This document shows, piece by piece, positions 1-11,134 of a stretch of 11,134 nucleotides of DNA (positions are counted from its first letter, which is position 1; every line of letters begins with the position of its first letter). The stretch is taken from UHGV virus genome UHGV-1789692. One strand, given 5' to 3'. This DNA is from a virus. The notes beneath the pieces are model-generated. The model was given only the letters and a program-made list of their open reading frames with translations, made no database searches and was not told the origin of the DNA. Both the position numbers and the translations under genes were made by a program.

Positions 1-34
1 GTCTCGTGGGCTCGGAGATGTGTATAAGAGACAG
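1..34. other. Illumina Nextera transposase adapter (read-2 type, GTCTCGTGGGCTCGGAGATGTGTATAAGAGACAG); technical artefact, not biology
   Basis: Exact 34-nt match to the Nextera adapter including the 19-nt mosaic end AGATGTGTATAAGAGACAG; its reverse complement is at the other contig end. Confidence 0.95.
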
Positions 35-191
35 ATGTTGGATATTGTTCAGGGTCATTAATAATTTTACTTATAGTTGTTTTACCTGCACCATTAGCTC
101 CATATAAATAGTTAAATTTAGAAAGCCCATGTAAAAGCTGAGTAGGGCCATTATATGAGCCTACTTTGTCAATAACTACCTCTTCAATCAT
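35..191 (-). CDS. Partial CDS (N-terminal 52 codons; rest lost at contig edge): P-loop NTPase with Walker A motif, candidate defence-type ATPase
   Basis: ATG at 191 (minus strand) preceded by GAGGAT; translation MIEEVVIDKVGSYNGPTQLLHGLSKFNYLYGANGAGKTTISKIINDPEQYPT contains a canonical Walker A (GANGAGKTT). The gene is AT-rich relative to the neighbouring prophage genes and runs into the adapter. Confidence 0.6.
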
Positions 192-6894: not shown

Positions 6895-7527
6895 ATGTTA
6901 AACATCAGAATGGGTTCCGATACGGGAGGTAAGGCAGCTATTGAGAGGCTGCTTGAGGCTTATGGATTCACAACTAAGCAGGCATTAAGCGAGCACCTGA
7001 ATGTCTCAAAAAGTACTATGGCAAACAGAGTGTTACGTGACAGTTTTCCTGCTGACTGGATAATTCAGTGTGCACTAGAAACCGGTGTTTCGTTACTTTG
7101 GTTAGCCACTGGACAGGGAAGCATGAAAGAAGGATACGAGCCTGAGAAAAGATCTCATAACGAGAACAAACAAGCAATTAAACCGTTATCCAAACTCATA
7201 ACTCCATCTATTCCTAAAGGAACCTTGGAAAATGGACAACTCAGTATTGATGAAGAGATTTTCCTAGACCACAGCATATTACCTGCAGATTATGAAGAAT
7301 CGATGTTCTTAGAAACCCCTACTGATTGTTATCTCATCGATAAATCAGTTAAACAAGTCAGCAATGGATTCTGGCTTATCAATATTGATGGAATGATTAT
7401 TATTGCAAAAATCATGCGGATTCCCGGCAATAAGATTGTAGTAAATCAAGATGAAGCGTCTTTCGAGTGCTCTGCTGATGATGTGGAAGTTATTGGGCGT
7501 GCAGTCAAAGTAATAAAGAGTATCTAA
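6895..7527 (+). CDS. cI: CI-like immunity repressor, phage 186 type (210 aa)
   Basis: ATG at 6895 with GGAGA 7 nt upstream; N-terminal HTH (TTKQALSEHLNVSKSTMANRV) followed by the phage-repressor phrase LLWLATGQG; lies immediately upstream of and co-oriented with int, divergent from the Apl/CII operon, as in 186. Confidence 0.7.
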   Translation: MLNIRMGSDTGGKAAIERLLEAYGFTTKQALSEHLNVSKSTMANRVLRDSFPADWIIQCALETGVSLLWLATGQGSMKEGYEPEKRSHNENKQAIKPLSKLITPSIPKGTLENGQLSIDEEIFLDHSILPADYEESMFLETPTDCYLIDKSVKQVSNGFWLINIDGMIIIAKIMRIPGNKIVVNQDEASFECSADDVEVIGRAVKVIKSI

Positions 7528-7529
7528 AC

Positions 7530-8546
7530 ATGACTGTCAGAAAACAGCCAAACGGTAAATGGTTGTGCGAGTGCTATCCCAATGGACGCAATGGCAAGCG
7601 CGTGCGTAAGCAATTTGCTACGAAAGGCGAAGCCATTGCTTTTGAAAGCTTCACAATGGAAGAAGTGAACAAAAAACCATGGCTGGGGGAAAAGGAAGAT
7701 CGGCGACACCTATCAGAATTAATTGAGCAGTGGTATTCCCTGTATGGTCAAACACTCGCAGACCCCAAGCGCCTCATAGCGAAACTTAGAATTATCTGTA
7801 ATGGTCTAGGCGATCCCATCGCTTCAGAACTGACAGCCGGTGACTTTACGAAATACCGCGAAGCACGGTTAAAAGGTGAAGTACGAAATGAAGATGGCAC
7901 GTTTATGTCGCCCGTTAAGCCCCGCACGGTAAACCTTGAACAGCGCAATCTATCATCTGTTTTTGGTACACTGAAAAAGCTGGGCCACTGGTCAGCCCCC
8001 AACCCGCTTGCTGGGCTGCCAACATTTAAAATTGCTGAGAGTGAATTGGCGTTCCTGACCCCGGAAGAAATTAAACGTCTGCTGGATGCCTGCGCCGATT
8101 CTCAAAGCTCCAGCCTGCTTTTGATTGCAAAAATATGCCTGGCCACCGGCGCACGCTGGAGCGAAGCCGAAAACCTGCAGAGTCATCAGGTATCAAAATA
8201 CCGTATCACTTATACCAAGACCAAAGGCAAGAAAAACCGAACTGTGCCTATTTCTAAGGATTTATATGAAGAACTGCCTAAGAATAGGGGGAAGTTATTC
8301 ACCCCATGCAGAAAAGCCTTTGAGCGTGCAGTAAAGCGGGCTGGTATCGATCTGCCAGAGGGTCAATGTACTCACGTTCTGCGTCATACATTCGCTAGCC
8401 ATTTTATGATGAATGGTGGAAACATATTGGTTTTGCGGGATATCCTAGGACATTCAGATATAAAAATGACCATGGTCTATGCACACTTCGCCCCAGACCA
8501 TTTAGAAGATGCCGTAACTAAAAATCCTTTATTTAATTTGAGGTAA
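7530..8546 (+). CDS. int: P2-type tyrosine integrase (338 aa)
   Basis: N-terminus ...GRNGKRVRKQFATKGEAIAFE parallels recalled P2 Int (...GRNGKRIRRKFDKKSEAVAFE); catalytic region CLATGARWSEAE, HVLRHTFASHFMMNGGNILVLRDILGHSDIKMTMVYAHF contains the R...H-x-x-R...Y tyrosine-recombinase signature. Starts 2 nt after the CI-like stop. Confidence 0.9.
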   Translation: MTVRKQPNGKWLCECYPNGRNGKRVRKQFATKGEAIAFESFTMEEVNKKPWLGEKEDRRHLSELIEQWYSLYGQTLADPKRLIAKLRIICNGLGDPIASELTAGDFTKYREARLKGEVRNEDGTFMSPVKPRTVNLEQRNLSSVFGTLKKLGHWSAPNPLAGLPTFKIAESELAFLTPEEIKRLLDACADSQSSSLLLIAKICLATGARWSEAENLQSHQVSKYRITYTKTKGKKNRTVPISKDLYEELPKNRGKLFTPCRKAFERAVKRAGIDLPEGQCTHVLRHTFASHFMMNGGNILVLRDILGHSDIKMTMVYAHFAPDHLEDAVTKNPLFNLR

Positions 8547-8556
8547 GTAGTAATTT

Positions 8557-9225
8557 ATGAATAGCGAACTAGAGTTACTTATAAAAATATTATTCCCTTC
8601 CCTATCTGCCATTATATCCTTATTAGGGCTTAAAACAGGGTGGACTTATAAAAAAGACAAACTATTCACATCACGTAAAAACATTAGCGAATTTTCATAT
8701 CAAATGTATAAAAGCAGTGAAGATCCGACCTTCAAAAAACTGGCGGAAGATTACGGCATTGCTGCATTAACCAAAGATAACACATTGACAAAAAAACAAA
8801 GATTAATATTACTCAACACAACAAACCCCGTTAGCGATATAGATGATTATTCCAAATGTCAAAGTCTAATTTCCATTACCACCCATAAAGAAATATTCGC
8901 ATGGAATAAAAAAAGATATAAATACAGCATATATCTGTCTCTTATACACATTATAACAACTCTAATTTACTTCATGGGCAGTCTCGTCGTAGCACTTCCT
9001 TTCAGTTATTCTGTTGTAGTAAGTGCTAAGATGATGGAGAAGATAAACCATCTAACTACTTGGCAATACTTTGGTTTAAGCAGCTATTTTGTGGTATCGG
9101 GAGTAGCAATATGCTTTATCTGCCTAGATAAGCTCTCCAAGATTAAGATCGCCGAGAGATTAATCGTTTCAAATAGGCGTTTAGGCGACAAATGCAGTGG
9201 CGGCACTTTGGCGGCAGAAAGTTAA
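8557..9225 (+). CDS. AT-rich cargo gene: 222-aa predicted multi-pass membrane protein of unknown function, between int and the att core
   Basis: ATG 11 nt after the int stop, same strand; visibly much more AT-rich than the flanking prophage genes; hydrophobic segments LIKILFPSLSAIISLLGL (N-terminal), YSIYLSLIHIITTLIYFMGSLVVALPF and YFGLSSYFVVSGVAICFICL separated by charged, K-rich soluble regions. No family recognised. Confidence 0.65.
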   Translation: MNSELELLIKILFPSLSAIISLLGLKTGWTYKKDKLFTSRKNISEFSYQMYKSSEDPTFKKLAEDYGIAALTKDNTLTKKQRLILLNTTNPVSDIDDYSKCQSLISITTHKEIFAWNKKRYKYSIYLSLIHIITTLIYFMGSLVVALPFSYSVVVSAKMMEKINHLTTWQYFGLSSYFVVSGVAICFICLDKLSKIKIAERLIVSNRRLGDKCSGGTLAAES

Positions 9226-9310: not shown

Positions 9311-9355
9311 ATGTAGGAATTTCGGACGCGGGTTCAACTCCCGCCAGCTCCACCA
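9311..9355 (+). other. ssrA: 3'-terminal ~45 nt of ssrA (tmRNA): prophage attachment-site core, a partial duplicate and not a complete gene
   Basis: ATGTAGGAATTTCGGACGCGGGTTCAACTCCCGCCAGCTCCACCA matches the recalled 3' end of E. coli tmRNA (T-arm GCGGG-TTCAACT-CCCGC, acceptor 3' strand, discriminator A, CCA). Sequence upstream of 9311 does not continue the tmRNA, so only the 3' fragment is present. The exact left boundary is from memory. Confidence 0.75.
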
Positions 9356-9482
9356 ATCATGATTGGACGGTGTAAGGACTACACCAACAAAAACAGGAAG
9401 TTATAAGTCTCAGCAGGACACCGACCAGACGGTGAGGAGACAAAAAAGGATACGCAACGGAGTCGCGACTCCCTATGACATT

Positions 9483-9510
9483 AAAGCCCGCTGATGCGGG
9501 CTTTTTTATT
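9483..9510 (+). terminator. Rho-independent terminator downstream of the ssrA fragment
   Basis: Stem GCCCGC / GCGGGC (9486-9491 / 9496-9501) with loop TGAT, followed by TTTTTTATT. Confidence 0.65.
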
Positions 9511-9938: not shown

Positions 9939-11015
<1,077 letters not shown>

Positions 11016-11107: not shown

Positions 11108-11134
11108 CTGTCTCTTATACACATCTCCGAGCCC
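11108..11134. other. Illumina Nextera adapter, reverse complement (CTGTCTCTTATACACATCTCCGAGCCC); technical artefact
   Basis: Exact reverse complement of the mosaic-end adapter at the 5' end of the contig; the track ORF 10927..11124 begins with MCIRDR, the usual translation of this adapter. Confidence 0.95.

What the first reader, a model, noticed from the sequence alone, without database searches (positions are those of the whole stretch)
8557..9225. AT-rich membrane-protein cargo gene between integrase and att core, apparently co-transcribed with cI-int
A 222-aa ORF with three predicted hydrophobic helices and no family I can recognise sits 11 nt after the integrase stop, on the same strand, just inside the attachment-site core. 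It is visibly far more AT-rich than the prophage backbone, which suggests separate horizontal acquisition. Being downstream of cI and int, it would be expressed in the lysogen from the lysogenic transcript. That is the expression pattern expected for lysogenic-conversion, superinfection-exclusion or abortive-infection genes, and int-att junctions are known insertion points for such cargo. This is the strongest candidate in the window for an uncharacterised single-gene anti-phage or membrane-targeting system.
Basis: partly seen in the sequence, partly recalled or inferred. Interest (0 to 1): 0.8.

Follow-up and report, generated by a model that had tools for sequence, protein, structure and literature searches.

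The report
Unknown membrane cargo gene in prophage hotspot
A real, conserved but uncharacterised inner-membrane protein gene sits in a swap-in/swap-out cargo slot between the integrase and the attachment site of a P2/186-type prophage, a slot that in sister phages carries known anti-phage genes, so it is a reasonable but untested candidate for a new phage-defence gene.

Summary
Window 8557-9225 (+) is a 222-aa ORF with three hydrophobic helices and GC 0.35. It starts 10 nt (not 11) after the integrase stop and ends 85 nt before a 46-nt ssrA core (9311-9356).

It is a real gene: about 70 family representatives share its architecture, dN/dS is 0.10-0.18, and AlphaFold gives pLDDT 92. It matches nothing in Pfam, NCBIfam, PADLOC, the PDB or BFVD; only phrog_21256 (unknown function) matches.

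The int-att interval is a cassette slot. Of 46 related prophages with the core in view, 15 are empty (146 nt) and 31 carry one of at least 8 unrelated AT-rich cargos, mostly directly after int on the same strand. One cargo is a known dCTP-deaminase defence gene, which shares the slot with a homologue in Siccibacter. A 2026 paper already names this interval a minor P2 defence hotspot.

The conserved, positively charged domain faces the cytoplasm. This argues against classical periplasm-facing exclusion and for a cytoplasm-facing role. Homologues persist in decayed remnants and as a lone Klebsiella islet.

Anti-phage function is plausible (about 0.4) but untested.

Caveat: the contig has untrimmed Nextera adapters, and an adapter-derived patch (8935-8951) corrupts residues 127-131.

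The parts
6895..7527 (+). 186-type CI repressor, first gene of the lysogenic operon
   Evidence: Pfam Phage_CI_repr 1.7e-30 and Phage_CI_C 7.2e-31
7530..8546 (+). Tyrosine integrase (Fels-2/186 type, ssrA-specific)
   Evidence: Pfam Int_N 1.1e-28 and Phage_integrase 1.4e-25; 84-92% nt identity to the integrases of Felsduovirus RE2010, Elveevirus Cartapus and Klebsiella phages
8528..9197 (+). Cargo cassette: replaces the last ~6 int codons and everything up to the conserved backbone arm
   Evidence: Alignment with empty-slot relatives: similarity is lost after ...AAAAATCC (~8527) and resumes at TGGCGGCAC... (~9198)
8557..9225 (+). 222-aa cargo ORF (the finding); GAGG 13 nt upstream of the ATG lies inside the int 3' end
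   Evidence: phrog_21256 at 7.9e-151; family; dN/dS
8578..8634 (+). TM1 (residues 8-26); short acidic N-terminus predicted periplasmic
   Evidence: Hydropathy; family charge profile, N-terminus net -1.1; helix 3-54 in the model
8635..8925 (+). Conserved, basic cytoplasmic domain (residues 27-123): four helices plus a beta-hairpin; motif S.FA..A.ELGYAAL.GD..L...QR..LL and W116
   Evidence: Alignments A2/A4; most conserved segment (0.44), net charge +5.3; pLDDT 93-98
8935..8951 (+). Nextera/Tn5 mosaic-end adapter-derived patch (17 of 17 nt) replacing native AGAAAATTAATAAAA; turns RKLIK into LSLIH (residues 127-131), including R127, which is 89% conserved
   Evidence: this exact protein is found on this contig only
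8950..9126 (+). TM2 (residues 132-152), short poorly conserved periplasmic loop (153-170), TM3 (171-190)
   Evidence: loop column identity 0.20, net charge about 0
9127..9222 (+). Basic C-terminal cytoplasmic helix (conserved AE.LI, A199); the last ~9 residues SGGTLAAES are encoded by phage backbone
   Evidence: relatives of 207-209 aa lack this tail
9198..9217 (+). Conserved backbone element TGGCGGCACTTTGGCGGCAG (tandem TGGCGGCA), present in empty and filled slots; candidate integrase arm-type site (inference)
9311..9356 (+). att core: 46 nt identical to the 3' end of ssrA (tmRNA); prophage/host boundary at ...CCACCA
   Evidence: annotated ssrA in all E. coli genomes; divergence of L010 after CCACCA
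9483..9504 (+). First terminator-like hairpin downstream of the lysogenic operon, in host DNA

Best explanation
The ORF is an accessory ('moron') cassette in the integrase-attachment-site hotspot of a Fels-2/186-type P2-family prophage integrated in ssrA. It encodes a three-pass inner-membrane protein with the N-terminus out and the C-terminus in. Its conserved, positively charged ~95-residue domain and its C-terminal helix face the cytoplasm. It is most likely transcribed with cI and int in the lysogen (inferred). It works as a single gene with no partner (shown by context). My committed mechanism is that it protects the lysogen against other phages from the cytoplasmic face of the membrane. 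The cytoplasmic domain would recognise a phage or phage-perturbed host component. The three transmembrane helices, probably as an oligomer, would then compromise the membrane or block a membrane-associated step of infection; that is, a sensor-effector fusion of the abortive-infection type. Shown: the gene is real, its topology, the cassette nature, slot variability and autonomy. Inferred: expression pattern, anti-phage role and mechanism.
For: Real, selected gene: 14 close clusters and 71 representatives, nearly all 200-230 aa. dN/dS is 0.10 (L016 vs L017) and 0.18 (L007 vs L010). The AlphaFold model from 56 sequences has pLDDT 92.3 and pTM 0.81. Hotspot: of 46 int-related IMG/VR loci with the ssrA core in view, 15 are empty (146 nt) and 31 carry AT-rich cargo (GC 0.31-0.38) from at least 8 unrelated families, mostly 2-18 nt after int on the same strand. 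One cargo is PADLOC dCTPase at 2.2e-146; others are a SMEK-domain protein and a DCD/dUTPase-TM + ThyX pair. Cartapus carries a 'putative RES protein' between int and attP. In Siccibacter the homologue and a dCTP deaminase share one slot. PMC13586616 lists int-att as a P2 defence hotspot and found 6 of 8 random unknown P4 hotspot loci protective. Autonomy and host benefit: the gene is a lone AT-rich islet with its own upstream region in K. quasipneumoniae. It is also retained, under purifying selection, in decayed remnants outside resident prophages. Cytoplasm-facing: family-wide charge and conservation profile. Operon architecture.
Against: There is no phenotype and no expression data. No similarity to any defence or exclusion family or fold was found. 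Guilt by location is weak: in PMC13586616 only 3% of P2 systems lie here, and machine learning flagged only 15-32% of unknown P2 proteins. A copy seen on at least 1000 Klebsiella contigs at a metabolic locus is atypical for fast-turnover defence genes. The transmembrane helices carry almost no conserved polar residues (only Y138 and P148), so a pore or channel is not indicated. No sequenced phage isolate or plasmid carries it.
Confidence: 0.4

Rival explanations
1. A lysogenic-conversion or host-fitness gene unrelated to phage defence: a membrane protein that alters envelope physiology, stress tolerance, or immunity to a bacteriocin or contact-dependent toxin, and that the prophage merely carries.
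For: It is fixed as a single-gene islet among metabolic genes in K. quasipneumoniae, on at least 1000 contigs. Distant members are lone chromosomal genes in non-phage contexts. It is retained under purifying selection after prophage decay. No defence-family match was found.
Against: In Enterobacteriaceae most contexts are the int-att slot, alongside conflict-type cargos. No neighbouring toxin or bacteriocin gene is seen in any context. There are no plasmid copies, for example next to colicin operons.
Confidence: 0.3
2. A gene that serves the phage itself: for example it modulates integration or excision, or lysis timing at the membrane, or counters host defences or ssrA-integrating satellites and competitors.
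For: It sits in the lysogeny module next to int and the attP arm, and the ORF overlaps the conserved arm-like repeat. The slot is carried in packaged phage genomes.
Against: The slot is empty in a third of relatives, so it holds no essential phage function. Homologues persist and stay under selection with no phage around them.
Confidence: 0.12
3. Classical superinfection exclusion from the outer face of the inner membrane, blocking DNA entry of incoming phages as T4 Imm, HK97 gp15 or P22 SieA do.
For: It is a small prophage-encoded inner-membrane protein in the repressor operon. An analogous arrangement is known for Ltp of S. thermophilus phages (PMC3952083, listed, not read).
Against: Only ~7 N-terminal residues and an ~18-residue loop are predicted to be periplasmic, and that loop is the least conserved part of the family (column identity 0.20, against 0.44 for the cytoplasmic domain). 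No PHROG exclusion family matches.
Confidence: 0.08
4. A membrane toxin or addiction element that stabilises the prophage, with no role in phage resistance.
For: It is an AT-rich single gene with three transmembrane helices. The commonest alternative cargo is annotated as a RES-type NAD+ toxin domain.
Against: No antitoxin-sized partner or antisense feature is conserved next to it. It is probably constitutively expressed in lysogens and is stably kept as a lone gene in Klebsiella.
Confidence: 0.07
5. A spurious ORF in AT-rich non-coding cargo DNA.
For: AT-rich DNA often contains long chance ORFs; there is no annotation beyond 'hypothetical protein'.
Against: pN is far below pS in all pairs and dN/dS is 0.10-0.18. 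Seventy-one length-matched relatives were found down to ~20% identity. The co-evolution-driven AlphaFold model has pLDDT 92.
Confidence: 0.01

Closest known systems
Integrase-att defence hotspot of P2-like prophages (PMC13586616, NAR 2026); main P2/P4 hotspots of Rousset et al. 2022 (PMC9122126)
   Same: Same location (between int and att of a P2-family prophage). Same behaviour: alternative, unrelated, AT-rich cargos exchanged between conserved flanks. Known defence genes (dCTP deaminase) are among the alternatives.
   Different: This particular cargo matches no DefenseFinder/PADLOC-type model available here and has no reported phenotype. The paper gives the interval only 3% of P2 systems and does not describe this gene in its main text; its supplementary files are not held.
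Prophage superinfection-exclusion membrane proteins (T4 Imm, P22 SieA/SieB, HK97 gp15, S. thermophilus Ltp)
   Same: Small prophage-borne envelope proteins expressed in the lysogen, often from the lysogeny module (own knowledge; PMC3952083 for Ltp).
   Different: There is no sequence relationship (PHROGs). The bulk of this protein and its conserved surface are cytoplasmic, not periplasmic or surface-exposed.
Single-polypeptide or two-part abortive-infection membrane effectors (lambda RexB with RexA, CBASS/Pycsar transmembrane effectors; own knowledge)
   Same: The proposed logic: a cytoplasmic sensing part coupled to a few transmembrane helices. It also shares prophage or hotspot location and AT-rich single-gene cargo.
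   Different: No homology was found: PADLOC gave only a single member hitting a '4TM effector' model at E 0.0064, which is noise. No partner sensor or cyclase gene is present. Membrane disruption is not shown.
ExbB/TolQ/MotA stator subunits
   Same: Same gross topology: N-out, TM1, ~100-residue helical cytoplasmic domain, TM2-TM3 hairpin, cytoplasmic tail, about 220-240 aa. ExbB and TolQ appear in the Foldseek list.
   Different: The matches are not significant (E about 1-1.5, TM 0.22-0.30). There are no conserved polar transmembrane residues. No ExbD/TolR/MotB-like partner appears in any context. No Pfam MotA_ExbB hit.
phrog_21256
   Same: Full-length match at E 7.9e-151: this is the same protein family as catalogued from prophages.
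   Different: The PHROG carries no function. No deposited phage genome in INPHARED encodes it.

Membership tests
Cargo of the P2-like int-att hotspot (PMC13586616) | Lies between the integrase gene and the att site, inside a P2-family prophage | tested here: met
   int 7530-8546, ORF 8557-9225, ssrA core 9311-9356; P2-family backbone genes gpA, CII, Fil-region, DUF2732 and DUF5347
Cargo of the P2-like int-att hotspot (PMC13586616) | Content of the interval varies among closely related prophages, including an empty state | tested here: met
   15 empty and 31 filled of 46 loci; 23 ORF clusters, at least 8 clearly distinct cargo families; MS7163 sibling with a 407-aa cargo
Cargo of the P2-like int-att hotspot (PMC13586616) | Known defence systems occur among the alternative cargos | tested here: met
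   PADLOC dCTPase at 2.2e-146 for the 585-aa cargo; it co-resides with a homologue in Siccibacter
Anti-phage defence system (any) | Reduces phage infection when expressed | not testable with these tools
   Needs plaque and liquid infection assays
Known defence families (PADLOC-DB v2.0.0) | Significant HMM match to a catalogued defence protein | tested here: not met
   0 families for the protein; across 56 family members only two single-member hits at E>0.004
Known superinfection-exclusion protein families (in PHROGs) | Sequence membership in an annotated exclusion family | tested here: not met
   Only phrog_21256 (unknown function); other hits have E>=0.06
Known superinfection-exclusion protein families | Functional surface exposed outside the cytoplasmic membrane | tested here: not met
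   Positive-inside analysis of 56 members puts the conserved domain in the cytoplasm; the periplasmic loop is short and the least conserved segment. This is a prediction, not an experiment
Lysogen-expressed moron (co-transcribed with cI-int) | Transcribed from the lysogenic promoter in the prophage state | tested here: inconclusive
   10-nt gap, same strand, no + strand terminator-like site before 9483 and no promoter-like site between int and the ORF; 186 int is on the leftward lysogenic transcript. No transcript data
ExbB/TolQ/MotA stators | Fold similarity, conserved polar transmembrane residues, adjacent ExbD/TolR/MotB-type partner | tested here: not met
   Foldseek E about 1, TM<=0.30; no Pfam hit; no partner in any context; transmembrane conservation limited to Y138 and P148
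Class I holins | Three transmembrane helices N-out/C-in, about 90-130 aa, encoded in the lysis cassette | tested here: not met
   The topology matches, but the protein is 222 aa with a 95-residue cytoplasmic domain and lies in the lysogeny module
Any Pfam / NCBIfam family or solved fold | Significant profile or structure match | tested here: not met

The most novel reading that the evidence does not exclude
The protein founds a new family of single-gene, membrane-anchored anti-phage proteins. A conserved cytoplasmic helical/beta-hairpin domain of previously undescribed fold would sense infection, and three transmembrane helices would execute the response. The family circulates as a cassette in the int-att slot of P2-family prophages and has been domesticated as a chromosomal gene in Klebsiella and other Proteobacteria.
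Probability: 0.35. Interest if true: 0.6.

Novelty: new member of a known kind. Interest (0 to 1): 0.45.

Why it matters
If it is protective, this would add a compact (about 0.65 kb) single-gene membrane defence with no relative among catalogued systems. It would also show that the little-studied int-att slot of P2-family prophages is as productive a source of new immunity genes as the main hotspots. In this survey, four of the five commonest cargo families in the slot have no known function. The defined cassette junctions (int 3' codons on the left, TGGCGGCA repeat on the right) give a simple recipe for harvesting all cargos of this slot from genome collections. If it is not protective, its retention as a selected, lone gene in Klebsiella points to an unrecognised envelope function. 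Either way the gene is cheap to test.

Tried and rejected
1. Family libraries for the protein and for 56 relatives (Pfam, NCBIfam, PADLOC): no real hit. The soluble domain alone against Pfam and the PDB gave noise or compositional matches to designed repeat proteins.

3. The first AlphaFold run with 13 close sequences was poor (pLDDT 54) and was discarded in favour of the 56-sequence run.

4. Other searches: tblastn against 50,697 phage records and 72,556 plasmids found no copies. Rfam and tRNA scans of the window found nothing. Locus search with the diverse alignment failed for lack of conserved blocks. The second large protein search with the profile added almost nothing.

5. I first read L017, L019 and L020 as 'two-gene slots' or 'a different integrase carrying the same cargo'. 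I rejected this after finding the ssrA core upstream of the homologue: those copies are remnants outside the resident element.

6. Literature searches on accessions and the PHROG id found nothing. The supplements of PMC13586616 are not held.

Full report

Yes. The window has an ATG-initiated ORF at 8557-9225 on the + strand, 222 aa. A 19-residue hydropathy scan finds three hydrophobic stretches, at about residues 5-26, 124-157 and 171-193. GC is 0.353, against 0.464 for the integrase, 0.40 for cI, 0.53 for the replication gene and 0.55 for host glaH.

Directly upstream on the same strand are a 186-type CI repressor (6895-7527) and a tyrosine integrase (7530-8546). The integrase stop is at 8544-8546, so the gap to the ATG is 10 nt, not 11. 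A GAGG lies inside the end of int, 13 nt before the ATG.

The att core is 9311-9356. These 46 nt are 100% identical to the 3' end of the annotated ssrA gene in all 5426 complete E. coli genomes. The window holds no complete tmRNA, so this is the partial copy at the int-proximal prophage end. Host DNA follows: glaH/csiD at 10038-11015. The prophage is a P2-family element with a 186-type switch. Fels-2 and SopEPhi, which have this kind of integrase, are known to use ssrA (PMC3448106).

**2. A data-quality caveat**

The window is an untrimmed Nextera contig. Bases 1-34 are the full read-2 transposase adapter. Bases 11108-11134 are the mosaic end followed by CCGAGCCC.

A third copy of the mosaic end (17 of 17 nt, CTGTCTCTTATACACAT) lies inside the ORF at 8935-8951. 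It replaces, base for base, the AGAAAATTAATAAAA found in all sibling copies. This changes residues 127-131 from RKLIK to LSLIH and removes R127, which is conserved in 89% of the family. That exact protein occurs on this one contig only, among about 15 billion sequences, while the normal E. coli form is seen on 928 contigs. I treat the patch as an assembly artefact. The biological protein is the RKLIK form.

**3. Is it a real gene?**

Yes.
- The word-indexed search of 5.8 billion proteins finds only 14 clusters, from E. coli, Salmonella, Siccibacter and Klebsiella.
- An exhaustive HMMER profile search of 1.84 billion representatives finds 71 relatives. Nearly all are 200-230 aa and align end to end.
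- Codon comparisons show purifying selection. dN/dS is 0.10 for L016 vs L017 (dS 0.61) and 0.18 between E. coli copies. In distant pairs pN is 0.2-0.37 against saturated pS of 0.75-0.98.
- With the 56-sequence alignment, AlphaFold2 gives pLDDT 92.3 and pTM 0.81. With 13 close sequences it gave only 53.9.

**4. What the protein looks like**

The model has these elements:
- a long helix (3-54) containing TM1;
- three further helices (57-72, 79-86, 91-100);
- a beta-hairpin (105-107 and 114-116);
- TM2 (124-154), a short helix (157-164), and TM3 continuing into a C-terminal helix (168-215).

Across 56 members the segments behave as follows:

| Segment | Net charge | Column identity |
|---|---|---|
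| N-terminus | -1.1 | 0.38 |
| Domain between TM1 and TM2 | +5.3 (+4.9 in the 15 residues before TM2) | 0.44 (highest) |
| TM2-TM3 loop | about 0 | 0.20 (lowest) |
| C-terminal tail | +1.1 | 0.34 |

By the positive-inside rule the protein is N-out and C-in, with its conserved surface in the cytoplasm. The best-conserved positions are R82 (in a QR motif), W116, Y138, P148, A199 and L202, plus the motif ELGYAAL.GD.

**5. What it resembles**

Nothing known.
- Pfam, NCBIfam and PADLOC give no hit for the protein or for any of 56 relatives. PHROGs gives only phrog_21256, of unknown function.
- PDB sequence profiles give only compositional matches to designed repeat proteins.
- Foldseek against the PDB gives at best E 0.028 with TM about 0.25 (BAR domains). 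ExbB and TolQ share the topology but appear only at E about 1 and TM 0.30 or less.
- BFVD gives nothing, and AFDB was unavailable.
- No paper mentions its accessions.

**6. The slot**

I fetched 80 IMG/VR loci encoding integrases about 80-98% identical at the nucleotide level and measured the interval from the int stop to the ssrA core. The core was in view in 46 loci.
- In 15 the interval is 146 nt and has no ORF.
- In 31 it is 0.8-2.8 kb of AT-rich DNA (GC 0.31-0.38; one IS-containing locus 0.44). It usually holds one gene that starts 2-18 nt after int on the same strand.

Clustering gives at least 8 unrelated cargo families:

| Cargo | Size | Copies | Annotation |
|---|---|---|---|
| Cluster 1 | 312-414 aa | 22 | No Pfam/PADLOC hit for its representative. 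The sibling E. coli prophage in MS7163 (407-aa hypothetical) and phages RE2010 and Cartapus (401 aa; 'putative RES protein' in Cartapus) carry similar-sized genes in the slot; I did not test whether they belong to cluster 1 |
| Cluster 2 | 251-375 aa | 19 | Membrane protein, unknown function |
| Cluster 3 | 506-509 aa | 8 | Unknown function |
| Cluster 4 (this family) | 218-222 aa | 2 loci plus the window | Unknown function |
| Cluster 5 | 577-585 aa, opposite strand | 3 | PADLOC dCTPase at 2.2e-146 |
| Clusters 6 and 7 | 261 + 255 aa | 2 each | dCTP-deaminase-like/dUTPase protein with a membrane anchor, plus ThyX |
| Single locus L095 | 330 aa | 1 | SMEK-domain protein |

In Cartapus the slot gene lies between int and the ogr/tail genes, so slot cargo is packaged with the phage. 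PMC13586616 independently lists the int-att interval as a minor P2 defence hotspot, with 3% of P2 systems. Among complete E. coli genomes, only 29 of 5426 carry this int + ORF arrangement.

**7. Cassette anatomy**

I aligned the window with empty-slot relatives.
- Similarity ends inside the last ~6 codons of int, after AAAAATCC (about 8527).
- It resumes at TGGCGGCACTTTGGCGGCAG (9198-9217), a tandem repeat kept in both empty and filled slots. This may be an integrase arm site, which is my inference.

So each cargo brings its own int C-terminus. The ORF here also runs into backbone DNA, which supplies its last ~9 codons. This explains the C-terminal extension that the 207-209-aa relatives lack. 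Conserved flanks on both sides suggest exchange by homologous recombination (inference).

**8. Other contexts of the family**

- The same slot in Siccibacter (66% identity), where a dCTP deaminase shares it.
- The same slot for P0015 (49%) and L016 (50%).
- In L017, L018, L019 and L020 the homologue lies beyond the ssrA core of the resident element. It is preceded by a truncated P4-type integrase fragment fused to the last ~45 nt of a 186-type int. This is a decayed remnant that kept the cargo and is still under purifying selection.
- In K. quasipneumoniae it is a lone gene (GC 0.45 in a 0.62 background) with its own 200-nt upstream region, between metabolic genes, on at least 1000 contigs.
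- Distant members are lone chromosomal genes with no recurrent neighbour.

So the gene acts alone, and hosts keep it without the phage.

**9. Expression**

No promoter-like site lies between int and the ORF. No terminator-like site lies on the + strand from 6626 to the host hairpin at 9483-9504. In phage 186 an int::lacZ fusion reports leftward lysogenic transcription (PMC7708051). Co-transcription with cI-int is therefore the simplest reading, but it is inferred.

**10. Interpretation**

- **Firm:** this is a genuine, horizontally exchanged, single-gene cargo encoding a three-pass inner-membrane protein with a conserved cytoplasmic domain of unknown fold family, sitting in a known hotspot.
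- **Likely (about 0.4):** it protects the lysogen from other phages. Because the conserved surface is cytoplasmic, I favour a sensor-effector mechanism of the abortive-infection type over classical exclusion at the periplasmic face.
- **Main rival (about 0.3):** a non-defence envelope or fitness function, favoured by the fixed Klebsiella copy.

Its score of 0.8 is too high for one of many unknown hotspot cargos in an already described slot.

Noticed in passing
window 1-34 and 11108-11134: Both contig ends are untrimmed Nextera adapter: GTCTCGTGGGCTCGGAGATGTGTATAAGAGACAG at the left, CTGTCTCTTATACACATCTCCGAGCCC at the right. The window is a whole 11,134-bp ENA metagenome-assembly contig.
   Followed up: yes
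window 8935-8951: A 17-nt copy of the synthetic Tn5 mosaic end inside the ORF replaces native sequence base for base. It alters residues 127-131 (RKLIK to LSLIH), including the conserved R127. This is almost certainly an assembly artefact; the variant exists on this contig only.
   Followed up: yes
window 36-191 (-): AT-rich N-terminal fragment (52 aa, Walker A GANGAGKT) of an AAA_13/SMC-type ATPase, cut by the contig end, downstream of gpA and DinI. This is the main GpA-GpQ hotspot of P2-like phages. The sibling prophage in E. coli AF5 has a LA2681-family HEPN protein there instead (L001 284-1861), so the window touches a second variable defence slot.
   Followed up: partly
window 9198-9217; L001 10799-10818; L003 8594-8613: A conserved tandem repeat TGGCGGCA-YTT-TGGCGGCA marks the right edge of every cargo and is present in empty slots. 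It may be an integrase arm-type site. The cargo ORF reads through it and borrows its last ~9 codons from it.
   Followed up: partly
L017 7421-7980; also L019, L020: Downstream of the ssrA core of a resident element lies a chimeric remnant: the N-terminal part of a P4/CP4-57-type integrase fused to the last ~45 nt of a 186-type int, followed by an intact homologue of the cargo gene. This shows tandem occupation and decay at ssrA with selective retention of the cargo.
   Followed up: partly
L041 7024-8247, L031 7023-8054, L045 7027-8547 (representatives): Three unknown cargo families are more frequent in the same slot than the one under study: 312-414 aa (22 copies), a 251-375-aa membrane protein (19 copies) and 506-509 aa (8 copies). 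None hits Pfam or PADLOC. A similar-sized slot gene in phage Cartapus is annotated 'putative RES protein'; I did not test whether it belongs to the first family.
   Followed up: partly
L038 7041-8596; L096 likewise: A two-gene cargo in the same slot: a dCTP-deaminase-like/dUTPase protein with a C-terminal membrane anchor, followed by a ThyX thymidylate synthase. This is a nucleotide-pool pair that PADLOC does not recognise.
   Followed up: no
L004 6001-6624: In Klebsiella quasipneumoniae a 49%-identical homologue is a single-gene AT-rich islet (GC 0.45 vs 0.62) between a FAD monooxygenase gene and a LysR regulator gene. It is seen on at least 1000 contigs, so it appears fixed in that lineage.
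   Followed up: partly
L006 8001-8471: The Buttiauxella MAG copy aligns only over residues 28-184, and the longest ORF starts at residue ~77. It may be a pseudogene or an assembly problem.
   Followed up: no
L030 7017-9383: One slot (2365 nt, GC 0.44) contains a 317-aa ORF that looks like an IS5-type transposase (judged from memory, not tested), upstream of a cluster-2 cargo gene.
   Followed up: no
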